From Shigella phage SHSML-45: a stretch of 64,000 bases of DNA. How positions within the stretch are numbered: position 1 is the first letter of the stretch; the number at the start of each line of letters is the position of its first letter. Under the pieces are notes generated by a model that saw only the letters and a program-made list of their open reading frames with translations, did not search any database and was not told the origin of the DNA. The translations under genes and the position numbers were made by a program. Below are positions 10,109 through 56,134 of the stretch, in pieces. Location: sequence record KX130863; one strand, given 5' to 3'.

Positions 10109-10145
10109 CAAGCCTCATCGTGGAACGCCCCATTGGAGGAAACTT

Positions 10146-11875: not shown

Positions 11876-11879
11876 TTAA

Positions 11880-13274: not shown

Positions 13275-13300
13275 TTAATTATTTTCTCCTAATCTGTAAC

Positions 13301-13786
13301 TTATCTGCGAAGTGACCTACGTGGAGGCTGATACCTCACTGTTACATTTATTTCTGCTAAACCATATGGGGCCAGTAGACCCTCATCTGTACTAACTGAT
13401 GTAATGATCATATCAGTTGCCTCACATGGGAAGGTCGATCCATTAGGTTTACTAACAGTATATTCTAAATTTCCACCTGTGTCAATAACGGTTTTTATAT
13501 CCGCTACGAGTTTTTCAAGTTGCTCTTGAATGTCTGTTTTCTCTTTATCGTACACCAGGATTGGAAGTTCTAAAAACATCCACTGTTGGCCTGAAGGAAG
13601 ATACTGCCCAGTTTCAGTTCCGATATGAACTGCTACATAAGGAAACTCTCGTATTTCCTCAAATTTATAAGTTTGACGAGAAACGTTTCCGTATAGATTA
13701 TTAAAATATTCGTCAGGTTGAGAACCATCCATTTGTTTAGAGATTCGGTCAACCATAGCTTGTGCAATACTTGTTCTATGATCCAT
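13301..13786 (-). CDS. tail completion / tail terminator-like protein (161 aa)
   Basis: Position between neck genes and tail tube gene. Confidence 0.4.
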   Translation of the reverse strand: MDHRTSIAQAMVDRISKQMDGSQPDEYFNNLYGNVSRQTYKFEEIREFPYVAVHIGTETGQYLPSGQQWMFLELPILVYDKEKTDIQEQLEKLVADIKTVIDTGGNLEYTVSKPNGSTFPCEATDMIITSVSTDEGLLAPYGLAEINVTVRYQPPRRSLRR

Positions 13787-25529: not shown

Positions 25530-25550
25530 GGGTGGGTGCAGTGGGTTGGG
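25530..25550 (+). other. G-quadruplex-type motif
   Basis: Four GGG tracts with short loops (GGGTGGGTGCAGTGGGTTGGG) in an intergenic region. Confidence 0.4.
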
Positions 25551-25603
25551 CGAAAATACTTAGTCTGCTAACCGCCACCCCCGTTACTATTACCATGCTA
25601 ACT

Positions 25604-25640
25604 GTTTCATCCTGCAACCATTTTAATTGCAGGATGAAAC
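25604..25640. terminator. perfect 14-bp stem hairpin between convergent genes
   Basis: GTTTCATCCTGCAA...TTGCAGGATGAAAC followed on the plus strand by a T-rich stretch; lies between the plus-strand HNH gene and the minus-strand dmp-like gene. Confidence 0.5.
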
Positions 25641-25657
25641 TATTTCAACTTTAATTA

Positions 25658-26392
25658 TTACGCGACTTTTAGTTTCTCAATATATTGTTGCGGGCTGCAA
25701 CTATATTCTGCGCGTTCTTCCTCGGTCATACTTTCCCAACATAATTGCAGGCGGTCGGCTAGGAATTGATAATCATTATCATCGTCGAGCGATTCATCAA
25801 TAAAGGTTTCACCTATCAATGTAACCCCAATCGATAGAATATCGTTAATAGCTTGCGCGTCCAGCGTTTTAAATCCGTATGACGCCGCCGCTGATAGCAC
25901 GCCTTTATGATCATCAATCATCGTAAAATCAGCGTTTGGATATAGCTGTTTAAATAATTCAAAATAATAAGATTTATATACCGCGTCCTTACTGTGGTAT
26001 ATCTCGCTAACTTTATCAGCCTCAAAATATTTGTGTAGTGTATCACGGGAAAACACGCGGATATTACTATCACCACGACCGCGCAACCCTTGTTTACGCA
26101 AATAATAATAGTCCGACTTGCTCATTAGTCGAGCGGTGCAAATAATGTTTAAAGTATTTGCGTCATTCATGCACTGGCGCATATATGTAACAAGGGGCAA
26201 TAGTGTATCTTGCATTATTAAATCATGTTTGCAGGCTTCATTTTTATACTTATTTAAATCTAAATTGCCCTCGCTATCAAAGCAAGGCGCTACACGATGA
26301 AACGAATTAACGATAGTGCCGTCCAGATCCCAGATCATGACGCGGGAAATATGCGGGAAATTACGGGTAATATTCGTTTTAACTTGATTCAT
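25658..26392 (-). CDS. dmp: 5-prime-deoxyribonucleotidase Dmp-like (HAD superfamily), 244 aa
   Basis: N-terminal HAD motif IWDLDGT; 244 aa as T5 Dmp; adjacent to the A1-like gene. Confidence 0.6.
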   Translation of the reverse strand: MNQVKTNITRNFPHISRVMIWDLDGTIVNSFHRVAPCFDSEGNLDLNKYKNEACKHDLIMQDTLLPLVTYMRQCMNDANTLNIICTARLMSKSDYYYLRKQGLRGRGDSNIRVFSRDTLHKYFEADKVSEIYHSKDAVYKSYYFELFKQLYPNADFTMIDDHKGVLSAAASYGFKTLDAQAINDILSIGVTLIGETFIDESLDDDNDYQFLADRLQLCWESMTEEERAEYSCSPQQYIEKLKVA

Positions 26393-26420
26393 TTTATTAC
26401 GTTCTCCATTTGAGGGATTA

Positions 26421-26454
26421 GATTAATTCAGCATTACCCGCTAGTAAATAGCGG
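26421..26454. promoter_or_regulatory. conserved palindromic motif upstream of the dmp-like gene
   Basis: CATTACCCGCTAGTAAATAGCGGGTAATAATAAA with an 8-bp inverted repeat; related copy at 30323-30352. Confidence 0.5.
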
Positions 26455-26472
26455 GTAATAATAAATTAACTA

Positions 26473-26865
26473 TTAAAGGCCATACGCAAGCGCGTCAGCG
26501 ATAAAACTAACATCCTCACCTGATACATAGGAACGAATACCCGCACAAGTATATACTTTTGCACTCATCAATTGATCATCTAGGCAAGCGGGGCAAGGCG
26601 CAACCACTGCGAAAGCTAAACCGGATTTTACCGCGTCGATGATAGTCGTTTCTTGTTTCATCGTGTCAACATAAACGCCTGCGGCCTTAATGTAACTACT
26701 TGCGCGGCCTTGCGTATAGGCGAAAGTAGTGATCTGTAAAGCGTCGTTAAATTCGATTAAATCATCGACAACATGCCCCGCCTCGACGTGATAACGTTCG
26801 CCATTAGAATAAACCAGAACAATAGAAGATTGAGCGCGGTCAAATGGAATATTTTGCTTTTTCAT
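26473..26865 (-). CDS. hypothetical pre-early protein (130 aa)
   Basis: ORF with RBS, GC-richer codon usage like neighbours; no recognisable motif. Confidence 0.45.
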   Translation of the reverse strand: MKKQNIPFDRAQSSIVLVYSNGERYHVEAGHVVDDLIEFNDALQITTFAYTQGRASSYIKAAGVYVDTMKQETTIIDAVKSGLAFAVVAPCPACLDDQLMSAKVYTCAGIRSYVSGEDVSFIADALAYGL

Positions 26866-26886
26866 ATTTATATAACTCCAATTAGT

Positions 26887-27396
26887 TTAATAAGGGATAT
26901 TAAATTCTTTACACTTTGATTTAACCCATTCTAAAAGAATAGATAAATCATAATTGCCTTTTGAAACATATTTATTTGTTATAGGGTTTTTAATTTTTGC
27001 CCTGTAATATTCTCCCGCTATGGGATCAACTTTATCAAGATAAATATATTTCGGTAGTTTATTACGCCTTTTATAATCACTCTTATTTGTCATATTAACA
27101 GCATGAGTAACTAGGCGTAAATTATTTATATCGTTGTTAACGGGGTAAGAAATTATTTTATGATCTATATCTAAATCAGGGTTAATTTCTTTATTAAATA
27201 AAACCCAAATTAAACGATGAGCTTTATATAATTCACCATTAATCATTACATCATAATAGCCTGTCTGATTTAATGTTCCCGCTACACTTCCAGCTTTCAC
27301 ACCGGGCTTACTTATTTTCCATCGTAAAAATGATGGGCTAGATTCATCATAATAAACATTCTCGTTAACTTCATTAAAATCTATTTCTTTTGCCAT
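26887..27396 (-). CDS. HNH homing endonuclease (169 aa)
   Basis: Motif YKAHRLIWVLFNKEINPDLDIDHKI...NLRLVTHAVN shared with other HNH paralogs. Confidence 0.7.
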   Translation of the reverse strand: MAKEIDFNEVNENVYYDESSPSFLRWKISKPGVKAGSVAGTLNQTGYYDVMINGELYKAHRLIWVLFNKEINPDLDIDHKIISYPVNNDINNLRLVTHAVNMTNKSDYKRRNKLPKYIYLDKVDPIAGEYYRAKIKNPITNKYVSKGNYDLSILLEWVKSKCKEFNIPY

Positions 27397-27466
27397 TTAT
27401 AATCCTCCAATTAATATTGTCTCACTAATTGGAGGATTTAGGCAAATAAGATTTTAATTTATTGGC

Positions 27467-29134
27467 TTACTGTACAAAAAATTTACCGTTTTTAAAGTCA
27501 ATCAAAGTGCGCTGACCGTTTGCATAGGTAATAATATGCGTTTGCGTCCAGCTTGACGCGCCAACGTTGTAGCCCATATCAAGCGACCCCGCCACGCCAG
27601 CGGTATAAACGCCGCCGTAAATGCTAGCCGTATGAGTATGACCAGTGTTAAGGCGTCCCAACTTTTTAAACTGCTTAGGATTGCCCCGACTGCCGTTAAT
27701 GCCATTGTGACCGTGTACGCCGCATTCAATGCCAGCGATTTTAAATGATTGGTCTGTCGTCAGGAAAATAGCGTTAAATTCGCAACCTGCGACACTACGC
27801 AAGGCGTAATCTAGAACGTTAAAGGTATCATCCTTTTCAGCAATAGCGGCGTAAATCGCGGCATTTAGACGGTGATACAATTCCGCGTTTGCGGGATCGT
27901 CTTTAATGTTTGCGTTACGATCATCTAGCCAGCGTGAAAGAGCTAAATCGTGATTCGATTCAACAATAATTGTCTGCGAAAAATCGCGTTCCATTGACTC
28001 CAGCACGCGTCCAGTATCGATAAGATCATCCAGAACTTTATCACGTCCGGCGGCGTACTGTTTAGCAAGGAATACACCACTTGCGCGGTTATGATGATTG
28101 CGCGATGTAAAATCATGCACATCATGAATAAACTGATATTTCGGTTTAAGAATATCAAGCAAGCTGTTTTCACTAGCCCATGACGCAGCGGCGCAATCAT
28201 CATCTAATTTTTCGGCGTGAATATCGCCATATTGCAAGCCTAGAACATGATCGGATGTTTCAAAACATCCGGTAGGCATAGCGCAAACATTCAAATCGTA
28301 GAACATGCCGCTTTCGTCCATTGTTTCAAGCTGGCGGCAATAAAATTCTCCGTCGTCGTCAAATTCTACTAGCAAAGCGCCGAAATTATGTAAAGCCTCG
28401 GCCTTTTGCCCTGCTTTCTGCTGAATGTAGTTTTTAAGCGTAGCCGTTCCGGTTGAGTACATACGGCGCACTACTTCACCTTTTAACGCTGGCACACTTT
28501 CAGCGGTGATTTTAGCATGACCGATTGCCAGACCTTCAATATTTAAAGCCGTGGCGGTTTCTGCGAATCCTGAAAGCGGATAATCTGCCGTTGGTAAAAC
28601 GTTAATTTCAGCCATGAAAGCAAAGCGGCGATTATTCAGGAAAACATTTTTATCGCAAATATATTTATCGAAAGCTGAATCATATTTGATTCCTTCGCTA
28701 CCTTCGCCGTTTTGGAATCCATTTTTATTATAAATGAATTTACTAACCAGCAATTCAGCACCGATATATTCAGCGAATTTTTCCAGACTTGCTAAAAAGT
28801 TTTTATGCGGGAAAGTATTATTTTGAATCGACGTTAGAATAAAACGGCGACCGGATTTAACTTCCCATTGTTCGACGGTACTAGAAACAATCCCCGCCGC
28901 TTCGGGGCGATCATCATTTTTAATCGCCTTTTCAGCTTTTGCCGCTTTCGGTTTCGCTGGCTTATTTGCTTCCAACCAGTCACAAATTGCGGTCGAATGT
29001 TTCGGCGTATCATAAACAGCTTTTGAAATATCGTCGCAAACTTCCAATTTAGTAGCGCGTAAACGCTTACCGTAGAAGTTAAAATCTGCGGCCATTTTCA
29101 AAATTTGAGCTTGTTTTTCTGCGGAAATAACCAT
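27467..29134 (-). CDS. A1: A1-like pre-early protein, metallophosphoesterase-type (555 aa)
   Basis: 555 aa (T5 A1 is about this size); C-terminal His-rich metal-binding motifs (GHNGINGSRGNP...GHTHTASIYGG); sits between dmp-like and A2-sized genes. Confidence 0.6.
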   Translation of the reverse strand: MVISAEKQAQILKMAADFNFYGKRLRATKLEVCDDISKAVYDTPKHSTAICDWLEANKPAKPKAAKAEKAIKNDDRPEAAGIVSSTVEQWEVKSGRRFILTSIQNNTFPHKNFLASLEKFAEYIGAELLVSKFIYNKNGFQNGEGSEGIKYDSAFDKYICDKNVFLNNRRFAFMAEINVLPTADYPLSGFAETATALNIEGLAIGHAKITAESVPALKGEVVRRMYSTGTATLKNYIQQKAGQKAEALHNFGALLVEFDDDGEFYCRQLETMDESGMFYDLNVCAMPTGCFETSDHVLGLQYGDIHAEKLDDDCAAASWASENSLLDILKPKYQFIHDVHDFTSRNHHNRASGVFLAKQYAAGRDKVLDDLIDTGRVLESMERDFSQTIIVESNHDLALSRWLDDRNANIKDDPANAELYHRLNAAIYAAIAEKDDTFNVLDYALRSVAGCEFNAIFLTTDQSFKIAGIECGVHGHNGINGSRGNPKQFKKLGRLNTGHTHTASIYGGVYTAGVAGSLDMGYNVGASSWTQTHIITYANGQRTLIDFKNGKFFVQ

Positions 29135-29230
29135 GATAATAAAACTCCGTTAAAGGGATTAAAAACTTTTGTTATTGGCAATATTGCCAGATATAACGCC
29201 TTGAATAATAGGCGTTATAATTTGCAACAT

Positions 29231-29428
29231 TTAACTAATCGGCATTAGGCTAGAACTAACACCACAAGCAACGGCGGCAATAAAACAAAGTAAGCCCAAA
29301 CGCTTAGCTAATTTAGATTTACGTTTAAAATAATATGAATCTAAATCATTTTGAAAATAAGCGAACAATAATGAGGCCGCCATAATAAATAAGCCTAGAA
29401 TTAAAGATTCAGTAGGAAAGAAAATCAT
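29231..29428 (-). CDS. small membrane protein (65 aa)
   Basis: Two hydrophobic helices flanking a basic loop (KRKSKLAKR). Confidence 0.4.
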   Translation of the reverse strand: MIFFPTESLILGLFIMAASLLFAYFQNDLDSYYFKRKSKLAKRLGLLCFIAAVACGVSSSLMPIS

Positions 29429-29517
29429 TTTTAAAACTCCTGATTTAAGGGAAGAAAATAACTATCGCTAAACAGTTATATTATTGCCCTCCCACTAGGA
29501 AGGGCAAGGTATAACTA

Positions 29518-29934
29518 TTATTCACCTGCGGCTTGTTTTACTTCATCGGCAACGCCTAACAGTTGCGCCACGGCGTCCAGTGTTTCCAATTTTGCACTTT
29601 CCAGTGATGCCAGATCGTCAACGTCTTTGATAATGCCTGAATCGATGGCATGTTTTGCAATAACACGCACATAATGCGCTTTACGGATGGAACTACCACC
29701 GCCAACTTTACGCGGCTTATCGCTTTTCTGATACGCTTTCGCGCTGGTCAATTTTGAGCGAACAGACACGGGGGAGGCCGCGCCAACTGTTTTCGCAATT
29801 TCTTTCAGGCCGTCGCTGTTGGCGAACTCTAATCCGTTTTCATTAATTAGCTGTTGATACATGGTAACAGCCTGCTGGGTGTTTTCTTCATTCCAAGCAA
29901 ATTTTGCGGTTTTTTCGGTTTTAACGTTAGCCAT
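29518..29934 (-). CDS. A2-like pre-early protein (138 aa)
   Basis: Size and position immediately upstream of the A1-like gene match T5 A2; basic central region. Weak assignment. Confidence 0.4.
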   Translation of the reverse strand: MANVKTEKTAKFAWNEENTQQAVTMYQQLINENGLEFANSDGLKEIAKTVGAASPVSVRSKLTSAKAYQKSDKPRKVGGGSSIRKAHYVRVIAKHAIDSGIIKDVDDLASLESAKLETLDAVAQLLGVADEVKQAAGE

Positions 29935-30035
29935 GATTGTAACTCCTATCGATTTAATTTAAGGGATAAGATTAACATAATGTTAATCGTTATATACCCC
30001 GAACTACTGGGGTATATAAAAGTAACACTATAAAC

Positions 30036-30287
30036 TTATGCTACAGCTTCCCATTTTTCATTGCGCTGGGCAACCTTTACAACGTCGCCGGATTTAACCC
30101 GAACGTTATAAACGGTTTTCCCGTTGTTACTCCGTTCCGTTTCAGCGTATACCGCATCAATTACATCAAACGGCATAAGCGCCGCGCCTTTAATGCGCTC
30201 GGCCTTTCCGGTTAATTCGTCCGTTTTAGTAACGAAAGGAATAAAAACGGATTGACCAATTTTTGGCGCATTAGTAACGTTTTTCAT
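30036..30287 (-). CDS. hypothetical protein (83 aa)
   Basis: ORF preceded by a conserved palindromic upstream motif also found before the dmp-like gene. Confidence 0.45.
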   Translation of the reverse strand: MKNVTNAPKIGQSVFIPFVTKTDELTGKAERIKGAALMPFDVIDAVYAETERSNNGKTVYNVRVKSGDVVKVAQRNEKWEAVA

Positions 30288-30322
30288 GGTATAAACTCCA
30301 ATTTATTCAGTGGATTGTTCCG

Positions 30323-30352
30323 CATTACCTGCTAGAAAGTAACAGGTAATAA
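30323..30352. promoter_or_regulatory. conserved palindromic motif upstream of ORF 30036-30287
   Basis: CATTACCTGCTAGAAAGTAACAGGTAATAA, same architecture as the copy at 26421-26454. Confidence 0.5.
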
Positions 30353-30485
30353 GAAAAAATCCGCTCGCCAATATAATCAATTTAAAGAACTCCACTCAGG
30401 CCGCTATATCCCAGTTAGGGGGCGGGACACATTATGGTAAGTGCCGACCGTCAAATTTTATCAAGTTATCGCTCTTATCGAACTG

Positions 30486-30509
30486 GGTACATCTTAAAGC
30501 CTATCGGCT
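30486..30509. repeat. 24-bp inverted repeat, left copy
   Basis: GGTACATCTTAAAGCCTATCGGC matches the reverse complement of 30752-30775 with one mismatch. Confidence 0.65.
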
Positions 30510-30515
30510 AGGGTG

Positions 30516-30719
30516 TCAAACAGTTTTTTGCAGTTTTTTATGATTTTCTTTCAGGTCAATCATAATATTGCGCCAGATCATTTCTAAACCTTGCTGGCGG
30601 CCTTTCTTGTACTGCGCAAATCGGTATTTTACGGATTGCTGGGCTATTGTCAACAATTTTTTTGTTTCGCTATCTAGTGCCTTGCTAGGCTTGCCAGTTA
30701 TTAAAAGCGTTTGTTTCAT
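30516..30719 (-). CDS. small basic protein (67 aa), possibly DNA-binding
   Basis: Lys/Arg/Gln-rich; bracketed exactly by a 24-bp inverted repeat pair. Confidence 0.4.
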   Translation of the reverse strand: MKQTLLITGKPSKALDSETKKLLTIAQQSVKYRFAQYKKGRQQGLEMIWRNIMIDLKENHKKLQKTV

Positions 30720-30751
30720 ATCGTCGATTCCTTATAATATATAAGTTTACC

Positions 30752-30775
30752 GCCGATAGGCTTTAAGATATACCC
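30752..30775. repeat. 24-bp inverted repeat, right copy
   Basis: GCCGATAGGCTTTAAGATATACC; partner of 30486-30509; lies in the upstream region of ORF 30516-30719. Confidence 0.65.
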
Positions 30776-30896
30776 AATTTTTAAAGAGCGTGGCGGTAAA
30801 CTTCCCGCCGTGTAGTTCGTCATTGCCGCCCTACGAGATAAATAATAGCAAATACCAAAAATGGCGCAACCTTATTTTTGTAAAGAAACGTAAGTT

Positions 30897-31238
30897 TTAC
30901 GCCTTTCTATAGTCCCCCTTATTTTGGTTGTTTTCGGCTTGAGTTACTAACCGTAAGTTATCAATAAAATTATTACTAGGGTTACGATCAATATGATCAA
31001 TTACTAGTTTGCTATCTATTTTATAGTTAAATAATAACCACACAATACGATGCGCTAGGTAACGCTCTTTATTGAGCTGTACAGACCAATAGCCATCCTT
31101 TCTTTTAGTGCCTGCTACCCCATGAAAGGCGCAACCGGGGCGGGATACTTTCCACCGTAGGCAACTGGGACTAGTTTCATCATAGTAAAGATTATCTAGC
31201 ACGGTTTCTAAATCAATATCTTTTGTTAACTCAATCAT
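30897..31238 (-). CDS. HNH homing endonuclease (113 aa)
   Basis: Motif AHRIVWLLFNYKIDSKLVIDHIDRNPSNNFIDNLRLVTQAEN. Confidence 0.7.
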   Translation of the reverse strand: MIELTKDIDLETVLDNLYYDETSPSCLRWKVSRPGCAFHGVAGTKRKDGYWSVQLNKERYLAHRIVWLLFNYKIDSKLVIDHIDRNPSNNFIDNLRLVTQAENNQNKGDYRKA

Positions 31239-31573
31239 TAATATTCTCCTATTAGTTTCATTTGGTTATTATATTATACCAAAATTATTAGCAATGTGGC
31301 TAATACAGTTTCACCGGACGCCGTCCAGCTATTGCCTAAGTTTAAAGGAAACGGGCGCGCGAATACCACAAAACAAAGCAGATAGGCAAGTAATTTTTTC
31401 ATATATATTTGCTTTGCCCTACTTGACAAAATCTAAAAAGCTCGTGGTAGCGATAAACGGCTTATCACCTTATGATGGGATGGCTAAAAACTTCATCGCG
31501 TTCTAGGGCGTTTTAGGCGCATTCTAGCCTTGTTGATAACTTATCCCCAGAAGCAAAAATGAAATTTTCCTAG

Positions 31574-31616
31574 TTATCCACTTGACTTTTATTTTCCAGT
31601 GGATAACTACTTATTT
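31574..31616. promoter_or_regulatory. inverted pair of DnaA-box-like sites
   Basis: TTATCCACT at 31574-31582 and its complement AGTGGATAA at 31608-31616; one mismatch to the TTATCCACA consensus. Confidence 0.5.
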
Positions 31617-31835
31617 TATGAAATAAATTAATTGACTTTTGTTTGTTAGTATGTATTGAGAGAATAGTAGGCTTATAATTGCTAGGATGATAATAATGCT
31701 GGTGGATTGTAACAGCCTGAACTATTAGCAGACTACTAATCCCGTAAAATCTCATTAGCCAACTAACTATTACATAATATATAATATATACATAAATTAA
31801 TAAGAAATAATAACGATAAGAAACTATCGGCCTAA

Positions 31836-31965
31836 GTGAGAAACACTATCATTTAAGTTATCCACAAGTTTATTAACAGCACTTTTTGACTTGACACGAT
31901 AGGCGGCGATATAAGGACTTTTACACAGACTTATCCACAGGTTATCCTACTGTATAAATATACAG
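31836..31965. repeat. left arm of ~130-bp imperfect inverted repeat, containing two DnaA boxes
   Basis: TTATCCACA at 31858-31866 and 31931-31939; reverse complement of 35225-35354 matches with few mismatches over the outer ~60 bp and inner ~42 bp. Confidence 0.7.
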
Positions 31966-32231
31966 GGTAAAAAGGTAGTGTTAACAACTGCAATCAATTT
32001 TAAGCGGCCTAAATCGCATTCTAACGAGCAAAACGCTGTAGGGTAATATTAAAGTAAAGCCTTCACCAGTCGCCCTGGTGGCTCCGCCGTGTTTTGCTCT
32101 TTACTATACCGCTGCGCAGTTAGCATAAAACTAGGCGTTAGGCAAGGAAAATAAAAAGGTAAAATAAACGTTGCCCCTAGAAAGAAAATACCTTTATCAT
32201 TCTCCTACCGATTAACGAGGGAGGCCAACAA

Positions 32232-33218
32232 ATGAGGCTATATAAACCAGATAACGCAACCGTCTTAAAAGGTGCATTGCGCAACCTGCTGGACGGTAGC
32301 AGAACAACCAGCATTAAACACTTTGTTAACAAGGCCGAAGATATTCACCAAAATTTTTTTGATGATTTCGATGCCTATGATATGAGTAGTTTTTTGCAAC
32401 TGTATAAGCAGGGGGCAACGATTATCTTGTATAATCGGGATAATCACCTGCTTACTAGCAGGGGGCCGGATACCGATTTCATAATTGTAAAAGGTAGCAC
32501 AGTAAAAGCCTATGATACTGGGGCGGGCTTAGAAGTTTTTTCAATAGAAAACTATGAAGCCAACCCCAATGATCTTTATGACGTTGAAAACTTTCTTGAT
32601 TCATTTTGGCGTTATTTATCCGTTGGCTGGAATCGGTCAATTGGTGACGGGTATCGTCTGGCGGCTGTAATGGCTTTTGATGATAACGGTAATTTTTTGC
32701 TACCGCCGGAATTATATGATCGTGTATATGAAGGCGATATTGTTGACGCCGGATTCTCTTTCGAAAGAGAAGAAAGTATTGGCAATATAGAAAAACATGC
32801 TGTAAATTCTAACACTCAAAGCGTTAATACTCAAATCACTGAAAATAAAGGAAAAAACACCATGACCAAGATCGCTAATATTGTTGCCGCTAATAAATCC
32901 GCTGTTGTAAACGCTGCAAAACTGGAAGCGGGTAAAATTGCACTGACTCAAATTACGAAAGTAGCGGCGAAAAAAGCACCGTTTATGATTAAAGGTTATA
33001 TTGATACACCTATCGGTCGAGTAGTGATTGCCAACCTGCTGAGCGTAGCGGTTGACCAGTACGCCCCAAGTAACCAAAAGGCGAAAGCGGTAGCAGGGGC
33101 AGCTATGGAAGCGGCAATGCTGGAAATGGTGCAAAGTTTTAACATCGCTGAAATGATTGATGAAATGGTGAAAGGTATTGATATTTCTACTTTTACCACT
33201 AGCACCGAAAGCGAGTAA
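32232..33218 (+). CDS. hypothetical protein (328 aa)
   Basis: Long plus-strand ORF inside the inverted-repeat-bracketed segment; Ala/Lys-rich helical C-terminal third; no recognised motif. Confidence 0.55.
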   Translation: MRLYKPDNATVLKGALRNLLDGSRTTSIKHFVNKAEDIHQNFFDDFDAYDMSSFLQLYKQGATIILYNRDNHLLTSRGPDTDFIIVKGSTVKAYDTGAGLEVFSIENYEANPNDLYDVENFLDSFWRYLSVGWNRSIGDGYRLAAVMAFDDNGNFLLPPELYDRVYEGDIVDAGFSFEREESIGNIEKHAVNSNTQSVNTQITENKGKNTMTKIANIVAANKSAVVNAAKLEAGKIALTQITKVAAKKAPFMIKGYIDTPIGRVVIANLLSVAVDQYAPSNQKAKAVAGAAMEAAMLEMVQSFNIAEMIDEMVKGIDISTFTTSTESE

Positions 33219-33283
33219 TAATATTAAGCGGGGATTGTTACCCCGCTTTACTATTCCCTTGTTAACTAATAGGAGGCTAATAA

Positions 33284-33778
33284 ATGGCTGCGGAAAAATA
33301 TGGCTTCTCACTGGGAGAAGTGAGCACGGCAAAACATGATATGATCATTTTGGTCGATTGTCATACTGGCTATTGCGGAGAAGGCTGGACGGAGGAACAT
33401 TTTGTTCCCGCTGGCTGTGATCTGGACGCTTTCGCAAACGAACACGCATATGATAATGCTTCTCGTTTCGGTAGTGATGGGGAAGAAGATGAAGAAACAG
33501 GGGAATGGATTGAAAATGATAATGTATACGCGAGTCTTTATCATTATCAATTGAGTAAGTCCGGTACTTATGTAAATGGTGGCGATCCTATTAATACCGT
33601 TATGAAACTAATTATTAAACACGGTGGCGCGGAAATAATTGGTAACAAGGCGTTATTATATGCAAATCGATTAAAACAGCTTGTTTATATTCCTGATAAT
33701 TCCCGTTGGGATGAATATGCCGTTTTACAGAAAGAACTAAAACGCTGTTTCGGCGTGGAAACATTAGAAATAGTCTAA
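33284..33778 (+). CDS. hypothetical protein (164 aa)
   Basis: ORF with AGGAGG RBS 8 nt upstream; acidic central stretch (DGEEDEETGEW). Confidence 0.55.
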   Translation: MAAEKYGFSLGEVSTAKHDMIILVDCHTGYCGEGWTEEHFVPAGCDLDAFANEHAYDNASRFGSDGEEDEETGEWIENDNVYASLYHYQLSKSGTYVNGGDPINTVMKLIIKHGGAEIIGNKALLYANRLKQLVYIPDNSRWDEYAVLQKELKRCFGVETLEIV

Positions 33779-34037
33779 TGTAAAGTTTTGTAAAGGTCGC
33801 CTATTATGGCGGCCTTTTTTGTTATAATGCCTTTACACCGAAACGGTGGACTGAAAATTTTCCCTGATTTCTAGGAGGCGTTAAAATGGTTATTTTTCGA
33901 TCTATTCTGGCTAGTATCTTGGGCGCTATTTTATCACTGTTTGCAATAGCTTTCGGAGTTCACGTGGTTATTATTGGAGCAGGTATCGCGGGGTTTTCTT
34001 ACTTGTTAGGCTGTATGACTGGTAAAGGGGAATAAAA

Positions 34038-34250
34038 ATGTTAAAGAATGTTTCCCTTGCCCGTTCCAAAGGTTTTAAGCTGGTGGATGTTAACACGTTC
34101 GAGCGTCCAGATTGTAAAATCGAATATGTAGCACGCAACAAAAACGCTTTCCGTGTTACAGAAAAGAAATTTGACAAGCGCGGCAATTTGGTAGCCGAAA
34201 CGGTTAAACACTTTGCCACCTTTTACGCTGCATTTCGTGGGGTATTATGA
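34038..34250 (+). CDS. hypothetical protein (70 aa)
   Basis: ORF start-coupled to an upstream small hydrophobic ORF (33887-34035). Confidence 0.4.
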   Translation: MLKNVSLARSKGFKLVDVNTFERPDCKIEYVARNKNAFRVTEKKFDKRGNLVAETVKHFATFYAAFRGVL

Positions 34251-34365
34251 TAGCGCAAATTAAAACAGCGTTTCGTTTCTGGGGAGTGATCCTCAGCGTA
34301 TGTTTTGGCATAGTTATTATTAGCCAGCTAATGATCATTGTTGCAATCGCAGGGGAAATGCTATC

Positions 34366-34710
34366 ATGGTAATTTATGAGGGCAATCGTTTTGTTACTAA
34401 TTGCCGTCCGGCATTATTAGCAAACTATTTAAACCAGCTTTCACCAGTTTATAAAGGCGTGGTTAATATCTATGAAGGCAAAGCACATTATAAAATTTCT
34501 GCCGTTGTCACCCGTGAACTAGCGTTTCAATTTTTAACTTTTGGGTCTTGTGACGTTCAGGTTATGGGGGAAGCGTTAATAGCAGAAAATGAAAATGAAT
34601 TTACTGACATTTTCCGCAAAGTATGTACGGAGCGCCTGATTATGAAAGGCGCATATATTCAATCCACTGCTGAAAGTATTGAAACAGCATTTCGAAAAAT
34701 TGCACAATGA
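34366..34710 (+). CDS. hypothetical protein (114 aa)
   Basis: ORF overlapping the stop of an upstream small hydrophobic ORF. Confidence 0.45.
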   Translation: MVIYEGNRFVTNCRPALLANYLNQLSPVYKGVVNIYEGKAHYKISAVVTRELAFQFLTFGSCDVQVMGEALIAENENEFTDIFRKVCTERLIMKGAYIQSTAESIETAFRKIAQ

Positions 34711-34837
34711 ATAGCTGGTGGCGAAAAACACAAAGCCATAAATCTAATAATACCGCTGGGAAGCATTCCCAGCGTTTACGATTTGGTAATGGCTTCACAA
34801 TGATATTGATAATCATTCTCATTCTAGGAGCAATGGC

Positions 34838-35077
34838 ATGGCTGTAAGAATTTTACGATATGTAGAACGTAAAGAAACCGATATTATGCAACATCATTTA
34901 ACTGATGGGCAATACGCGCAATTTTTAGAAATGCAGAAAAGCGGAGCTGATACAGCAACGCTAGGAGCGTGGATCAACTCAGTTTCAACGTGTACGCATT
35001 TTGATTCATACGGGTATACGCCAGCCGAAACCGTCCAGATCTTTGACGACTACGAGAAAGAATACATAACAGACTAA
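34838..35077 (+). CDS. hypothetical protein (79 aa)
   Basis: ORF with GGAG RBS; last gene before the right inverted-repeat arm. Confidence 0.45.
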   Translation: MAVRILRYVERKETDIMQHHLTDGQYAQFLEMQKSGADTATLGAWINSVSTCTHFDSYGYTPAETVQIFDDYEKEYITD

Positions 35078-35224
35078 TAATAACGGGGCGCAACTATCGG
35101 CCCCGCTTTTTCTGGCCTTCCTCAAATTTCCCCTTATTAAAGTACCTCCTCCAAAATTAAAACGCTTAGAATGCGTTTGAGAGCGTTTTAGACCTATATT
35201 AGAGTTATTCACTACGTAGGAATA

Positions 35225-35354
35225 CTGTATAAATATACAGTAGGATAACCTGTGGATAAGTCTGTTGAAAACGCCTCAAAATCGCTAGGGTTTTGTCAAG
35301 TCAAATCGTGCTGTTAATAAACCTGTGGATAACTTAAATAACAGTGTTTCTCAC
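35225..35354. repeat. right arm of ~130-bp imperfect inverted repeat, containing two DnaA boxes
   Basis: TGTGGATAA at 35251-35259 and 35325-35333; inverted partner of 31836-31965. Confidence 0.7.
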
Positions 35355-35510
35355 TTCCCTTTCTAAATGCGAATCATTCTCAGTATGTGACTCATTCGTA
35401 TTCAACTCTGTAAATGATAACCGTTCTCATTCCCCTTTCTAAACGCGAATCATTATCATTCGCATTCAACTTCTCAAATGCGAATCAATCTCATTATCAT
35501 TCGCATTCAG
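35345..35510. repeat. imperfect tandem direct repeats
   Basis: Recurring units CCCTTTCTAAA(T/C)GCGAATCATT and TCATTCGCATTCA read directly in the sequence. Confidence 0.6.
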
Positions 35511-35515
35511 GCGAG

Positions 35516-35531
35516 CAGGGCAATTGCCCTG
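35516..35531. repeat. perfect 16-bp palindrome CAGGGCAATTGCCCTG
   Basis: Self-complementary sequence immediately before the first GTGCAAATCCGA copy. Confidence 0.7.
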
Positions 35532-35566
35532 CGCTTTTGTGCAAATCCGACATTTGCCCCCATGGA

Positions 35567-36106
35567 TTACGCGTGGGCGTGTATGTGCAAATCCGACCCA
35601 TTTTTGGTAGTGTGCAAATCCGACCCTAAAATTTCATCCCTCCATTTTACTAGAAATTCTAGATCATATGAACACTTAGACTGAGTACCATTACTAGTAG
35701 GAACATAAGCCCGGTAATAATCACCCTTTGAGGTAGTTCTAGCAACACGAATATATTTTGGAAGATTGGTTGTTTTACTGTTGGTATTTTTGCGATTTCT
35801 AGCATTTTTATAGTCTGGTATTTGTCTTAGATTCTCAGGAGAATTATTAGTGGGATCCTGATCTATATGATCTACCTGCAACTCGGGATCAATACTGCCG
35901 TTATGCAGGCAGAAAACAATCCGAGAAACTGCTAGGGTTCCCACCCCAGATACAAAGACCACATAAGACTTCCTACCTTTTCCGTCGTCCCTTAAAGTGC
36001 CTGTATGTTTTCTTTTAGGTAATCTACTCAGCCCACTGGGACTTGATGGGTCAATAAAAAATAAGTCTTTCATTTGTGCATATTCGATAGGTATATATCT
36101 TGACAT
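35567..36106 (-). CDS. HNH homing endonuclease (about 179 aa from internal start)
   Basis: Motif LAVSRIVFCLHNGSIDPELQVDHIDQDPTNNSPENLR; GGAGG RBS before ATG at 36106; the track ORF extends to 36160. Confidence 0.65.
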   Translation of the reverse strand: MSRYIPIEYAQMKDLFFIDPSSPSGLSRLPKRKHTGTLRDDGKGRKSYVVFVSGVGTLAVSRIVFCLHNGSIDPELQVDHIDQDPTNNSPENLRQIPDYKNARNRKNTNSKTTNLPKYIRVARTTSKGDYYRAYVPTSNGTQSKCSYDLEFLVKWRDEILGSDLHTTKNGSDLHIHAHA

Positions 36107-36180
36107 AATAAAATTCCTCCTATGAAGTAATATTATAACAAAATTTTCGAAAGTGTGCAAGTGAAATTTTTATATTTGAA

Positions 36181-36207
36181 AATAACCGCCCTCCCTATAA
36201 CCGCCCT
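36181..36207 (+). repeat. direct repeat AATAAC(C/T)GCCCTCCCTATAACCGCCCT, copy 1
   Basis: Near-identical 27-bp sequence recurs at 36706-36732; each copy is followed by a GTGCAAATCCGA motif. Confidence 0.65.
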
Positions 36208-36705
36208 ATTCGAATCCTGTGGGATATGTGCAAATCCGACACGGTTTTTCTAGGATTAAGATGTGCGAATCCAATGAAATTTTTGTGACTTCGATGAGAG
36301 GGTGTGTGATTGTGTGAGTTTGGGGAGAAGTTGAGAGAGCGAGAGAAATTTAGAGGCTAGAAGGATGTGGGCGCAGGATTGGTGCGGAGCACCTGATTTG
36401 CGGGGATTTTGGGGAAGAGTTGAGATAATTTGGGAAGATTTGAGATAGGTGCAGAAAAAGTAAAATTTTATTAGCAAAATGGGGCAAAATAGCTTGACAA
36501 GTGGAAATTCTTGTGGATCTAAAAACTCAGGCAATCATGGGCCTTCGGCCCGAAATAATGCTGCTATTTTCGGGAGATTATATGTTCCTAAAAACTTAGG
36601 CATTTGTGCAAATCCGACCAGTTTTTAAACTCCTGTCAGTGTGCAAATCCGATAGCAATTTCCAGAAATGTGTTTTGGAAAAATGTCTTCTAGAAATAAC
36701 TGCCC

Positions 36706-36732
36706 TCCCTATAACCGCCCTGTATAGAAAAC
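36706..36732 (+). repeat. direct repeat AATAAC(C/T)GCCCTCCCTATAACCGCCCT, copy 2
   Basis: Matches 36181-36207 with one mismatch. Confidence 0.65.
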
Positions 36733-37234
36733 CGGCCTAAGATATGTGACGTTGGTGAGAAACTGCCCTAGAATGCGTGCAAATCCGATGAATATTTTTG
36801 TGTGATCTCTAGAATTTGTGCTTATCAATTTCCTAGAAACTTAGGAGTCTAGAAGAAAGTGTTGTGCCATCCTAGCAGATGAGCGGCAACCGGTGTATCA
36901 TCTTGAACGTTAATTTATCTATTCAACAGTATTAGTTTTTATATAAGTATAAGATCCCCAGGGTTCTCATATAGAGCTTTGCCCCCACCAGAAGGTCTCG
37001 TGATGTTTCTAGTAATCTTTATTAAATTACCTGTTGACTTGTCCTGTCGCTCCGTAACCTACGCTACAAGTCAGTAATTTAAGATTCCTGAACCACCACA
37101 CCTTCTGTGTGGCAACTCTAAATGGTTAATTCTATTAACTCATAGAGTTATGATAACATACATTTAGCTATCTGTCAACGAGAGTTTGTATTTGAGTCTC
37201 GGTACAGGTATTGTGCACCGAGACATGCAGAGTA

Positions 37235-38119
37235 CTATAATAATTCTTGGTATGCTTTCTGATACGCCTCAGTATCTGTAGGTGTATCTTTTGCTAACGC
37301 AATTAGTTCATCCGTTATCTGAATATTCGTATTATAACGTTGGTGGAACTCGTCTGGAATTTCTAGATATCTATTTATGAATGCTGCAGCAAGCGGTGTA
37401 ACTAACCCAATTTCTAGAGATAACTTAACTTGTTTCTCATAAATTAAATATTGAGAATCAGACGGTATTGGTGGGGTTACATCAATTTTTTCTGGTTCTT
37501 TTTCTGGTAGCAATGGATTGTTATACAATGCTTCATCTGGAAGCACAGATTTACGCTCTTTAAATATATAAGTTTCTAGATCAGATGCTTTAGACCCTGA
37601 ATACACAGCAAAAACGCTAGCTTTACCTTGAGATGCCCTAACTGGTAAGTAACTAGTAGGGTAGCTCCTTAATGCATCGTGGAATGGACTTCCTGAGTAT
37701 TTGTATGTATCCCCATAGAGATCATCAATATTCATTCGTTCATCTTCAAAGATATGGAAAGAGCTAAATGATGGGATAGTAAAGTATTCCATCTGTAATC
37801 CATAAACTAAGAAACGATGTGCGTATGCACTGATTTTTAAGACTGTAAATGCTTTCTCACCTTCTTTATAGGAATTGCCTTTTGAAGTAACTTGGTAACG
37901 TTTACAAAACATCTCTACTAGACGTTTCTCATTAATACCAAGAGTGGAGTACAGTCGTCCATTTAATCCTATAAGTGCATCGAACATAAATGCTAGTTTA
38001 TCTTTTTCTTCTTGGGATAGTTCTGGAAATGGCAATACTTTGGCATTAGGAACACTATTGTTCTCTTTAGGTTTTGTTTTACCAGCATTTTGTCTTAGTT
38101 TATCTTTAAAGTTATACAT
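37235..38119 (-). CDS. hypothetical protein (294 aa)
   Basis: First long minus-strand ORF after the repeat region; no recognised motif. Confidence 0.55.
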   Translation of the reverse strand: MYNFKDKLRQNAGKTKPKENNSVPNAKVLPFPELSQEEKDKLAFMFDALIGLNGRLYSTLGINEKRLVEMFCKRYQVTSKGNSYKEGEKAFTVLKISAYAHRFLVYGLQMEYFTIPSFSSFHIFEDERMNIDDLYGDTYKYSGSPFHDALRSYPTSYLPVRASQGKASVFAVYSGSKASDLETYIFKERKSVLPDEALYNNPLLPEKEPEKIDVTPPIPSDSQYLIYEKQVKLSLEIGLVTPLAAAFINRYLEIPDEFHQRYNTNIQITDELIALAKDTPTDTEAYQKAYQELL

Positions 38120-55870: not shown

Positions 55871-55946
55871 TGGTAGTTAGTAGTGGATTTGAACCACTGT
55901 AGTCGCTCCGTATGAAGGAGGTGCATAACCACTCTGCCAACTAACT
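55871..55946 (-). tRNA. tRNA, anticodon CAU (Met or Ile2)
   Basis: Cloverleaf read manually: 7-bp acceptor stem, T-arm AGTGG-TTCAAAT-CCACT, anticodon loop TTCATAC, encoded CCA. Confidence 0.7.
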
Positions 55947-56042
55947 ATTATGTTTTACTAGGCTAAGTAAGTATTCTTTATACTCTTTAGACCAACTAGC
56001 TTTTTTAAACTTTCCTGGACGCATAGCCTTAATTCCTAGATT

Positions 56043-56119
56043 TGGTACTCCGGGAGGGATTTAAACCCCCGATCTCTCGGTTATCAGCCGAGTGCTTTAG
56101 ATCGCTAAGCTACCGAAGC
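56043..56119 (-). tRNA. tRNA-Ile (GAU)
   Basis: Anticodon arm CTCGG-CTGATAA-CCGAG; T-arm with TTTAAAT loop; acceptor stem with two G-U pairs; encoded CCA. Confidence 0.6.
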
Positions 56120-56134
56120 ATTAAAATATTTACA

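What the first reader, a model, noticed from the sequence alone, without database searches (positions are those of the whole stretch)
31836..35354. A 3.3-kb plus-strand gene cassette bracketed by ~130-bp inverted repeats that carry DnaA boxes
Two ~130-bp segments (31836-31965 and 35225-35354) are reverse complements with only a few mismatches, and each carries two TTATCCACA DnaA boxes. The inner ends share a near-palindromic core, CTGTATAAATATACAG, that differs between the arms only at its central AA/TT. They bracket the only sizeable plus-strand gene block in this part of the window (ORFs 32232-33218, 33284-33778, 34038-34250, 34366-34710, 34838-35077), none with a recognisable family. In T5 the first-step-transfer region near the injection stop signal is known to hold DnaA boxes and repeats, so this may be the corresponding locus. 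The arm-plus-core layout also resembles a site-specific inversion or recombination site, and the enclosed genes are candidates for early host-takeover or anti-defence functions.
Basis: partly seen in the sequence, partly recalled or inferred. Interest (0 to 1): 0.75.

Follow-up and report, generated by a model that had tools for sequence, protein, structure and literature searches.

The report
T5-type injection-stop inverted repeats, rediscovered
The two ~130-bp inverted repeats are real, but they are the already-published repeat pair that brackets the accessory early genes in the terminal repeat of T5-like phages; what looks new is that each repeat also ends in a near-perfect binding site for the host SOS repressor LexA.

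Summary
Arms 31834-31965 and 35225-35356 are reverse complements (84% over 134 columns, E 3e-35). They hold all four perfect TTATCCACA boxes in the 64-kb window (0.66 expected).

The window is a T5-like phage, closest to Salmonella phage Shivani. The locus lies in its terminal repeat (about 25537-36519). The arms are the published IRC-spacer-IRD and IRD'-spacer-IRC' repeats (Wang 2005; Davison 2020), including the paired DnaA boxes and the invariant 52-nt spacer. The right arm sits 9.7-9.8 kb from the genome end, where first-step DNA transfer stops. The flagged feature is therefore already known.

The enclosed ORFs are homologs of T5.011, T5.013, T5.014 and T5.015, plus two non-T5 genes. [quoted passage not shown]

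A programmed inversion switch is not supported. There is no recombinase, none of ~30 close relatives shows the other orientation, and the arms do not co-evolve.

- The block is inverted in Sugarlandvirus and in the My1/DU_PP_V lineage, where Davison (2020) described it as replaced.
- The palindromic core is a near-consensus LexA operator (heterology index 0.95 and 4.76; the best E. coli K-12 site scores 2.35). It is conserved across the family and I did not find it described in the literature I could search.

What the arms do remains untested.

The parts
25537..36519 (.). Terminal repeat (single collapsed copy) of a T5-like phage; this is the first-step-transfer DNA
   Evidence: Window 25604-31823, 31776-34252 and 34363-37500 align to Shivani 68-6286, 6301-8777 and 8967-12104. 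Shivani annotates its terminal repeat as 1-11123. The boundaries are extrapolated from those offsets.
31834..31967 (+). Left arm, equivalent to IRC-spacer-IRD of T5 (Repeat Region 2). It lies between the leftward and rightward pre-early operons.
   Evidence: Equivalent to T5 NC_005859 6097-6228 and Davison's 6022-6152 in AY587007.
31858..31878 (+). DnaA box pair 1: TTATCCACA, then AGT, then TTATTAACA
   Evidence: Paired boxes 3 nt apart, as Davison described.
31879..31930 (+). 52-nt spacer. It contains a conserved TTGAC motif and a consensus-type box TTTTACACA at 31919-31927.
   Evidence: Length measured. It matches the invariant 52-bp spacer reported. Conservation profile.
31931..31950 (+). 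DnaA box pair 2: TTATCCACA, then GG, then TTATCCTAC. The second box overlaps the LexA-like half-site.
31948..31967 (+). LexA-operator-like palindrome TACTGTATAAATATACAGGG (heterology index 4.76)
   Evidence: 3 mismatches to the consensus. HI from the regression-recovered matrix.
32171..32200 (+). Promoter-like site (TTGCCC, 18 nt, TATCAT) just upstream of the first gene of the block
   Evidence: [quoted passage not shown] Not tested here.
32232..33218 (+). 328-aa protein, homolog of T5.011 (toxic in E. coli; perturbs the nucleoid)
   Evidence: 77% identical to T5.011. Pfam DUF7566, E 2.3e-112. T5 phenotype.
33284..33778 (+). 164-aa protein of the My1_018 family. It has no T5 homolog and occupies the T5.012 position.
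   Evidence: phrog_6741, E 1e-87. Homologs in BF23, KpGranit, My1 and KEY.
33886..34035 (+). 49-aa hydrophobic protein, T5.013 homolog (two transmembrane segments; lytic/toxic in T5)
   Evidence: 63% identical to T5.013. phrog_5607. T5 phenotype.
34038..34250 (+). 70-aa protein, T5.014 homolog. It carries the RefSeq/PHROG label 'endonuclease nicking abasic sites generated by host Ung'.
   Evidence: 93% identical to T5.014. phrog_4227, E 2.5e-50. The label conflicts with the papers' name T5.015.
34366..34710 (+). 114-aa protein, T5.015 homolog by locus tag. The T5 papers give the name T5.015 to the Ung-dependent nickase.
   Evidence: 86% identical to T5.015. phrog_4379..
34838..35077 (+). 79-aa protein of unknown function, absent from T5
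   Evidence: phrog_12351, E 5e-58. 100% identical in Shivani.
35084..35111 (+). Intrinsic terminator closing the block (CGGGGC...GCCCCG followed by CTTTTT)
   Evidence: Sequence read. Shivani annotates a terminator at the equivalent position, on the opposite strand in that record.
35223..35242 (+). LexA-operator-like palindrome TACTGTATAAATATACAGTA (19/20 to consensus; heterology index 0.95)
35223..35356 (-). Right arm, equivalent to IRD'-spacer-IRC' of T5 (start of Repeat Region 3 / iss). Minus-strand boxes at 35240-48, 35251-59, 35263-71, 35312-20 and 35324-32; 52-nt spacer 35260-35311.
   Evidence: It lies 9.69-9.82 kb from the repeat's left end. T5 annotates iss at 9140-10149.
35335..35624 (+). 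Direct-repeat field to the right of the right arm: 48-nt units at 35335, 35411 and 35446, and GTGCAAATCCGAC units at 35531, 35577 and 35604. It corresponds to the DRE/DRD-type repeats of the T5 iss region.
   Evidence: Families D1, D3 and D4. Davison's description of Repeat Region 3. The unit-by-unit correspondence was not aligned here.

Best explanation
**What it is (shown).** This is the conserved repeat pair IRC-spacer-IRD / IRD'-spacer-IRC' in the terminal repeat of a T5-like phage. The two arms bracket the rightward-transcribed accessory pre-early operon. The right arm sits at about 8% of the genome, where first-step DNA transfer pauses.

**How it most likely works (inferred).** Each arm is a cis-acting landing pad for host DNA-binding proteins that are already in the cell when the DNA arrives.
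- It carries an array of same-orientation DnaA boxes. High-affinity TTATCCACA anchors have weaker partners 2-3 nt away, and two such groups are held 52 nt apart.
- At the block-proximal end there is a very strong LexA operator that overlaps the last DnaA-type box.

Loaded with DnaA, and probably LexA, the right arm would form part of the nucleoprotein block that constitutes the injection stop signal. The left arm is an older, partly decaying duplicate that may cooperate with it, for example by DnaA-DnaA bridging into a ~3.3-kb loop. [quoted passage not shown]

**Status of each step.**
- Shown: the anatomy, its position, and its conservation across the family.
- Predicted: binding of DnaA and LexA.
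- Hypothesis: a role in the stop and restart of transfer. The DnaA part is Davison's (2020); the LexA part is mine.
For: **Identity with the published element.** 96.6% identity to Shivani. Terminal-repeat mapping. The description of the 131-bp repeats, paired DnaA boxes and 52-bp spacer in 25 phages including Shivani. The iss annotation in T5.

**Motif statistics.** 4 perfect DnaA boxes against 0.66 expected. 2 LexA-consensus sites against 0.01 expected. HI 0.95 and 4.76, against a minimum of 2.35 among the 368 potential SOS boxes listed for E. coli K-12, and a minimum of 7.15 over 200 shuffled windows.

**Conservation.**
- In 66 unique arms the best-conserved columns are the boxes and the CTGTATA..TATACAG core, while the spacer varies.
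- Across 789 kb of related loci, sites with HI <= 10 occur only at the arm positions.
- In L044/L045 (A1 ~43% identical) the right arm keeps the full layout. The left site keeps only a LexA-type box, which differs at 3 positions between the two phages yet retains CTGT...ACAG.

**Fit to the biology.**
- The pause does not need phage protein synthesis but is absent in FhuA proteoliposomes, so a pre-existing cellular factor fits.
- The right arm is the better-conserved copy. This matches Davison's view that the left copy is secondary and the viability of the T5 hegG-to-017 deletion.
Against: - No binding or functional experiment exists. The 2023 BF23 paper states that experimental studies are lacking, and a 2026 paper still calls the role proposed.
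- Proteins bound to DNA that has already entered do not obviously stop further entry.
- The LexA-type box does not overlap any identified promoter, which is atypical for SOS operators.
- A2 mutants degrade host DNA yet do not complete transfer, so an SOS signal alone cannot release the block.
- The palindrome could instead be the site of the dimeric phage protein A2. A2 models as a small HTH protein.
- I could not read Heusterspreute 1987, Wang 2005 or Davison 2015, so I cannot be certain the LexA resemblance is undescribed.
Confidence: 0.5

Rival explanations
1. Module boundaries. The arms matter mainly as conserved homology flanking a hypervariable accessory block. Co-infecting T5-like phages swap, lose or flip the block by ordinary homologous recombination within the arms. 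The protein-binding motifs are incidental or serve another purpose.
For: - The block varies greatly while the arms stay conserved. Core-to-core distance ranges from 1.6 to 5.3 kb; 011 is absent from several genomes; T5.012 is replaced here by a 164-aa gene.
- The block is inverted in KpGranit, My1 and DU_PP_V.
- Spacer types are shuffled between left and right arms of different phages.
- HNH homing endonuclease genes sit just outside both arms.
Against: - Homology for recombination does not need specific motifs. Yet conservation is concentrated in the DnaA-type and LexA-type boxes rather than spread evenly.
- These motifs survive where the rest of the arm has decayed.
- This is compatible with the best explanation as a secondary consequence rather than the selected function.
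Confidence: 0.2
2. Transcriptional control or insulation. DnaA and LexA bound at the arms regulate the pre-early operons or act as roadblocks around them. The right arm would stop read-through into the not-yet-injected DNA. The left arm would separate the divergent operons. Expression might be coupled to host SOS or replication state.
For: - LexA and DnaA are both known transcription regulators (established knowledge).
- The left arm lies between divergent promoters, and the right arm just after the operon terminator.
- A minus-strand promoter-like site (TTAACA, 16 nt, TATATT; 31984..31957) has its -10 inside the left LexA-type box.
Against: - The annotated T5 promoters lie outside the arms.
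- The promoter-like match is expected, because the LexA consensus itself is TATA-rich, and its -35 is not conserved in the arm consensus.
- An intrinsic terminator already closes the operon.
Confidence: 0.13
3. The palindromic core is the recognition site of a phage protein (the A2 dimer or the A1-A2 complex) rather than of LexA. The match to the SOS box is coincidence or mimicry.
For: - A2 is reported to be a dimeric double-stranded-DNA-binding protein required to resume transfer.
- A2 and the arms co-occur throughout the family.
- The whole 16-mer is more strictly conserved than chromosomal LexA sites usually are.
Against: - HI 0.95 on a matrix derived from E. coli sites is very unlikely by chance.
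- The variation that does occur (L044 vs L045, My1, DU_PP_V) keeps CTGT/ACAG and changes the tolerant centre, as expected for LexA.
- The core is unchanged where A2 is only 42-65% identical.
Confidence: 0.12
4. Programmed invertible segment: a site-specific recombinase flips the 3.3-kb block between the arms as a phase switch, as in Mu G, P1 C or Salmonella Hin.
For: The segment is bracketed by inverted repeats with a palindromic core. Both orientations exist within the family.
Against: - There is no recombinase family among the ORFs inside or beside the segment.
- Promoter and terminator are both internal, so inversion would not change expression.
- Orientation is uniform in ~30 close relatives and in the records that cover the whole 4.2-kb query in one co-linear place.
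- Arms within a genome are more diverged than orthologs between genomes.
- The asymmetric centre of the core takes every combination of orientations in different genomes, so it does not define polarity.
Confidence: 0.02
5. A replication-origin-like element that uses host DnaA to replicate the first-step DNA or to initiate phage replication.
For: Clustered, phased DnaA boxes resemble oriC.
Against: - T5 origins map near the middle of the genome, and the replication genes are not present during first-step transfer.
- No AT-rich unwinding element was evident next to the boxes on reading the sequence.
Confidence: 0.03

Closest known systems
IRC-spacer-IRD and IRD'-spacer-IRC' repeats of the phage T5 left terminal repeat (named by Wang et al. 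2005; analysed by Davison, bioRxiv 10.1101/866236, 2020; DnaA box first noted by Heusterspreute et al. 1987, as cited there)
   Same: Position in the terminal repeat. ~131-bp inverted pair flanking the T5.011-017-type block. Paired DnaA / DnaA-like boxes. 52-nt spacer. Right copy at the start of the iss repeat field at about 8% of the genome. Shivani, the closest relative of this window, is one of the 25 phages in that study.
   Different: Only details differ. This phage has 2 perfect plus 2-3 degenerate boxes per arm (T5 has 7 in all). The second pair is spaced by 2 nt rather than 3 if the box is read as TTATCCTAC. The block contents differ (164-aa and 79-aa genes here; no T5.012, 016 or 017).
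LexA operators (SOS boxes) of Enterobacteria, consensus TACTGTATATATATACAGTA
   Same: A 20-bp palindrome with CTGT-N8-ACAG. Heterology index 0.95 (right) and 4.76 (left) on the E. coli scale, which is as good as or better than the strongest chromosomal operators.
   Different: It does not overlap an identified promoter. It occurs in a strictly virulent phage. It is fused to a DnaA-type box. It is present as an inverted pair 3.3 kb apart. Binding is untested.
DnaA-box arrays of oriC, datA and DARS
   Same: High-affinity TTATCCACA anchors with weaker same-orientation boxes 2-3 nt away, roughly one helical turn from start to start. This arrangement supports cooperative DnaA oligomers.
   Different: No unwinding element. 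Not at a replication origin. Duplicated in inverted orientation.
Invertible segments of phages and Salmonella (Mu G/Gin, P1 C/Cin, Hin)
   Same: A ~3-kb segment bracketed by inverted repeats. Both orientations are seen among related genomes.
   Different: Those systems use 26-34-bp crossover sites, an adjacent serine recombinase and an enhancer; they show mixed orientations within one population and switch expression. None of these holds here.

Membership tests
T5-family IRC-spacer-IRD / IRD'-spacer-IRC' repeat pair | Lies in the long terminal repeat of a Demerecviridae genome, downstream of dmp-A1-A2 | tested here: met
   A1 is at 27467-29134(-) and A2 at 29518-29934(-).
T5-family IRC-spacer-IRD / IRD'-spacer-IRC' repeat pair | Two ~131-bp copies in inverted orientation that flank the rightward pre-early block | tested here: met
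   The same arrangement is found in 45 of 47 related loci.
T5-family IRC-spacer-IRD / IRD'-spacer-IRC' repeat pair | DnaA / DnaA-like boxes in pairs about 3 nt apart, with two pairs per copy | tested here: met
   The spacings are 3 nt and 2 nt.
T5-family IRC-spacer-IRD / IRD'-spacer-IRC' repeat pair | Invariant 52-bp spacer between the two halves | tested here: met
   31879-31930 and 35260-35311 are each 52 nt.
T5-family IRC-spacer-IRD / IRD'-spacer-IRC' repeat pair | Right copy lies at the first-step-transfer boundary (~7.9% of the genome), followed by direct-repeat fields | tested here: met
   It lies 9.69-9.82 kb from the left end of a ~120-kb genome. Direct repeats at 35335-35624.
Injection stop signal (functional definition) | DNA transfer pauses here in vivo without phage protein synthesis | not testable with these tools
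   Two-step transfer has been verified only for T5 and BF23.
LexA operator (SOS box) | 20-bp palindrome matching TACTG(TA)5CAGTA, with a heterology index in the LexA-binding range | tested here: met
   19/20 and 17/20 matches. HI 0.95 and 4.76, against a LexA-binding class that peaks at 7.34.
LexA operator (SOS box) | Overlaps or adjoins the promoter it represses | tested here: inconclusive
   There is only a weak consensus match on the minus strand at the left arm. The annotated T5 promoters lie elsewhere.
LexA operator (SOS box) | Bound by LexA and released on SOS induction | not testable with these tools
   Needs EMSA or ChIP.
DnaA box cluster | 9-mers matching TTWTNCACA, clustered beyond chance | tested here: met
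   All 4 perfect boxes in the window lie in 264 nt of arm sequence, against 0.66 expected per 64 kb.
DnaA box cluster | Bound by DnaA | not testable with these tools
   The literature states that no experimental test has been done.
Site-specific invertible segment (Gin/Cin/Hin type) | Recombinase gene within or adjacent to the segment | tested here: not met
   No recombinase family in Pfam, PHROG or PADLOC scans of the enclosed and neighbouring ORFs.
Site-specific invertible segment (Gin/Cin/Hin type) | Both orientations present among clonal or closely related genomes | tested here: not met
   One orientation in all ~30 Tequintavirus/Epseptimavirus loci. The other is found only in distant lineages. 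Read-level data are not available.
Site-specific invertible segment (Gin/Cin/Hin type) | Inversion changes which genes are expressed | tested here: not met
   The promoter-like site at 32171-32200 and the terminator at 35084-35111 both lie inside the segment.

The most novel reading that the evidence does not exclude
The inner end of each arm is a functional, very high-affinity LexA operator fused to a DnaA-box array. On this reading, the 50-year-old T5 'injection stop signal' is a composite host-protein roadblock whose release is coupled to the SOS response. [quoted passage not shown] A virulent phage would thus use the host's DNA-damage sensor as a checkpoint confirming that takeover has succeeded before committing the rest of its genome.
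Probability: 0.1. Interest if true: 0.8.

Novelty: already known. Interest (0 to 1): 0.38.

Why it matters
As flagged, the finding re-discovers a published feature of T5-like phages, so it adds nothing beyond showing that a sequence-only reader can spot it.

The element does sit at the centre of an old open problem. Nobody knows why T5 DNA entry stops at 8% or how it restarts, and recent papers still describe the DnaA-box idea as untested.

1. **A predicted LexA operator.** It is stronger than any in the E. coli chromosome and is conserved at the stop site across the family. It names a second candidate host factor, one that can be removed or made uncleavable with standard alleles.
2. **The block is invertible.** It has been inverted, lost or resized without loss of the arms. 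So the arms, not their spacing or the orientation of the genes between them, are the selected unit.

Both are cheap to test with the T5 engineering tools that now exist.

Tried and rejected
1. **Polarity from the core's centre.** From the first 7 genomes I thought the central AA/TT was always in direct orientation in the two arms and could mark inversion crossovers. The 48-locus survey showed (AA,AA), (AA,TT) and (TT,TT) genomes, so I dropped the idea.
2. **Concerted evolution of the arms.** This would be a sign of ongoing exchange. It is rejected: paralogous arms are 0.74 identical and orthologous arms 0.92.
3. **Arms as promoters.** I found only weak consensus matches that are not conserved in the arm consensus. 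The annotated T5 promoters lie outside the arms.
4. **Known RNA families** in 31000-36700: only two sub-threshold chance hits.
5. **Defence or anti-defence families** for the enclosed proteins: none in PADLOC.
7. **Prior mention of LexA at the T5 stop signal.** I found none. Davison 2020 has no occurrence of 'LexA' or 'SOS'. Eight papers hold both 'phage T5' and 'LexA', each with only 1-4 mentions of either term; I opened one and it was unrelated. Davison 2015 is not held in the library.
8. **Exact boundaries of the T5 hegG-to-017 deletion.** I looked for them to prove the left arm is dispensable. They are not given in the main text.
9. **Which protein is the Ung-dependent nickase** (70 aa or 114 aa)? 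The paper gives no length.

Full report

Yes. The repeat finder reports two adjacent inverted pairs: 31834-31896/35294-35356 (63 nt, 92%) and 31914-31980/35210-35276 (67 nt, 81%). A gapped local alignment merges them into a single repeat, 31834-32024 against the reverse complement of 35166-35356 (187 columns, 81%). The tight part is 31834-31965 / 35225-35356. blastn gives 84% over 134 columns, E = 2.6e-35.

The four perfect TTATCCACA boxes (31858+, 31931+, 35251-, 35324-) are the only ones in the 64-kb window, against 0.66 expected. The listed ORFs exist and form the only plus-strand block in the region.

**2. Where are we?**

The 4.2 kb around the locus is 96.6% identical to Salmonella phage Shivani and 84-89% identical to many other T5-like phages. 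529 phage records match. In Shivani, BF23 and T5 the matching stretch lies inside the annotated long terminal repeat.

Aligning the window to Shivani places the repeat at about 25537-36519. The left arm is then 6.30-6.43 kb and the right arm 9.69-9.82 kb from the left genome end. That is about 8% of a ~120-kb genome. The DNA to the left of 25537 continues into genes that lie at the other end of the unique region in permuted assemblies, so the window comes from an assembly with one collapsed copy of the repeat.

**3. It is a published element.**

Davison (bioRxiv 10.1101/866236, 2020) compares 25 T5-like phages, Shivani included. He describes a 131-bp IRC-spacer-IRD in 'Repeat Region 2' and its inverted partner IRD'-spacer-IRC' at the start of 'Repeat Region 3', the injection-stop (iss) region. 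His description includes:
- eight DnaA or DnaA-like boxes arranged in pairs 3 bp apart;
- an invariant 52-bp spacer;
- a highly variable distance between the copies;
- the proposal that membrane-bound DnaA holds the DNA at these sites.

The repeat names come from Wang et al. 2005, and the first DnaA box was noted in 1987, as cited there. In the window the spacers 31879-31930 and 35260-35311 are each exactly 52 nt. T5's RefSeq record annotates 9140-10149 as iss. The function is still untested. A 2023 BF23 paper says experimental studies are lacking, and a 2026 PNAS paper still calls it proposed.

**4. The enclosed genes.**

| Window ORF | Size | Identity | Family |
|---|---|---|---|
| 32232-33218 | 328 aa | T5.011 homolog (77%) | Pfam DUF7566 |
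| 33284-33778 | 164 aa | My1_018 family, absent from T5 | phrog_6741 |
| 33886-34035 | 49 aa | T5.013 homolog (two transmembrane segments) | phrog_5607 |
| 34038-34250 | 70 aa | T5.014 homolog | phrog_4227 |
| 34366-34710 | 114 aa | T5.015 homolog | phrog_4379 |
| 34838-35077 | 79 aa | not in T5 | phrog_12351 |

[quoted passage not shown] A mutant lacking hegG through 017 is viable with small plaques.

In T5 the left arm (6097-6228) lies between hegG (5411-5929) and 011 (6495-). If the deletion runs continuously from hegG to 017, it also removes the left arm. The exact end points are not given in the main text.

**5. Is it an inversion switch?**

I anchored on the conserved A1 protein and fetched 42 loci from IMG/VR, adding six loci from annotated records. 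I normalised all of them to A1 on the minus strand.
- In every Tequintavirus/Epseptimavirus locus (~30; A1 >= 91% identical), in Erwinia phage KEY, and in two distant phages (A1 ~43%), the block is on the plus strand.
- In Klebsiella phage KpGranit (Sugarlandvirus), Pectobacterium phage My1 and DU_PP_V it is on the minus strand with reversed gene order. In KpGranit the 114-aa-like gene is at 3939-3799, the 164-aa-like gene at 4562-4212 and the 011-like gene at 6264-5314. tblastn E-values are 6e-5, 2e-16 and 1e-36.
- The arms bracket the block in all of these genomes.

[quoted passage not shown] At the protein level it is the same block, inverted. A rough neighbour-joining tree of A1+A2 needs at least one inversion event, and two on its topology.

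Everything else argues against a programmed switch:
- there is no recombinase;
- the promoter-like site and the terminator are both internal;
- close relatives show no orientation polymorphism;
- arms within a genome are 0.74 identical while orthologous arms are 0.92 identical, so there is no homogenisation.

**6. The palindromic core is a LexA-type operator.**

Aligning 14 arms, and then 66 unique arms, shows that the best-conserved stretch is GGTTATCCTACTGTATAWWTATACAG(TA). The consensus LexA box for E. coli and Salmonella is TACTGTATATATATACAGTA (PMC8072944). The right-arm core, 35223-35242 TACTGTATAAATATACAGTA, matches it at 19 of 20 positions, and the left-arm core, 31948-31967, at 17 of 20. 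These are the only two sites in the window within 3 mismatches, against 0.01 expected.

To score them on the standard scale I took 141 (sequence, heterology index) pairs for E. coli K-12 from Table S1 of PMC12527982. I recovered the additive matrix by regression (RMSE 6e-5).
- The right core scores HI 0.95. That is lower than any of the 368 potential SOS boxes listed for K-12, where the best is 2.35. TACTGTATGAGCATACAGTA, which I recognise as the recA operator, scores 4.31.
- The left core scores 4.76.
- In 200 shuffled windows the lowest HI was 7.15.
- In 789 kb of related loci, sites with HI <= 10 occur only at the arm positions.

The right-arm box is nearly invariant. In part of the T5 clade the left-arm box has lost a half-site through a CAG->CAA change. 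In the distant L044/L045 the left site has lost its DnaA boxes but keeps a good LexA-type box. That box differs at three positions between the two phages while preserving CTGT...ACAG.

I found no mention of LexA or SOS in Davison 2020, and no paper in the searchable library that links LexA to the T5 stop signal.

**7. Most likely mechanism.**

- Shown: the anatomy, its position at the first-step boundary, and motif-focused conservation across subfamilies.
- Inferred: host DnaA and LexA, both present before any phage protein is made, load onto the arms as they enter. This fits two facts: the pause needs no phage protein synthesis, and it does not occur with FhuA proteoliposomes.
- Hypothesis: this complex is part of the stop signal, and A1/A2 resolve it.

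LexA self-cleavage after A1-driven host DNA breakdown could contribute to release. It cannot be sufficient, because A2 mutants degrade host DNA yet do not complete transfer. A2 itself models as a small helical HTH protein with weak similarity to the GcrA and Myb DNA-binding domains. It remains an alternative ligand for the palindrome.

**8. Verdict.**

The inversion-switch reading is not supported. The LexA-operator identity of the core and the evolutionary inversion of the block are, as far as I can tell, new details. They make the old injection-stop question more directly testable, and that is why the score is not lower.

Noticed in passing
window 34038-34250 and 34366-34710; T5 NC_005859 T5.014 and T5.015: RefSeq and PHROG (phrog_4227) attach 'endonuclease nicking abasic sites generated by host Ung' to the 70-aa T5.014 protein. 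The experimental papers name the nickase T5.015, which is the 114-aa protein in the same record. One of the two labels is probably shifted by one gene.
   Followed up: partly
window 31518-31610: A third cluster of DnaA-like boxes lies ~250 bp left of the left arm: TTATCAACA (31531, -), TTATCCCCA (31541, +), and a 15-nt hairpin palindrome TAGTTATCCACTTGA / TCCAGTGGATAACTA (31571-31609) that carries two inverted TTATCCACT boxes. It probably corresponds to Davison's Repeat Region 1.
   Followed up: no
window 30897-31238 (-) and 35567-36160 (-): HNH homing-endonuclease genes lie outside each arm (HNH_3, E 6.5e-17, for the left one; Shivani annotates both). One is ~600 bp beyond the left arm and the other ~210 bp beyond the right arm. 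The right-hand one lies beyond the predicted stop point, so from the left repeat copy it would enter only in the second step.
   Followed up: partly
window 31957-31958 and 35232-35233; cores in L001-L048: The centre of the LexA-type core is always AA or TT and never the perfect-consensus TA. Each arm can carry either form, independently of the other arm. Perhaps a perfect (TA)5 palindrome is avoided.
   Followed up: partly
arm spacers: window 31879-31930 and 35260-35311; L003 6140-6190; L004-L006 right arms: Two spacer types exist: ...AACAGCACnnTTTGACTTGACA... and ...TACAnnnTTGTAAATTAnnTTGAC.... They are distributed mosaically. T5's left arm carries the type found in the right arms of KEY, KpGranit and My1. 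This suggests past exchange between arms or between phages.
   Followed up: no
window 31806-31832 and 35076-35102: There is a 27-nt direct repeat (81%), AATAATAACG...AACTATCGGCC. One copy lies immediately left of the left arm. The other covers the stop codon of the 79-aa ORF and the start of the operon terminator.
   Followed up: no
window 1-25536: The sequence left of the terminal repeat continues without a break into genes that sit at the far end of the unique region in other records. The window therefore comes from a circularly permuted assembly with one collapsed copy of the terminal repeat.
   Followed up: partly
window 55871-62196: There is a cluster of 10 minus-strand tRNA genes typical of T5-like early regions. 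One is called tRNA-Ser with an unusual ACT anticodon (62123-62196).
   Followed up: no
[not shown]
   Followed up: yes
L047 (IMG/VR contig 3300028294_000071), about 13200-13350 after flipping so that A1 is on the minus strand: The most distant A1-bearing contig (35% identity) has no recognisable arm or LexA-type box. It still has a tight cluster of four DnaA-type boxes upstream of A2.
   Followed up: no
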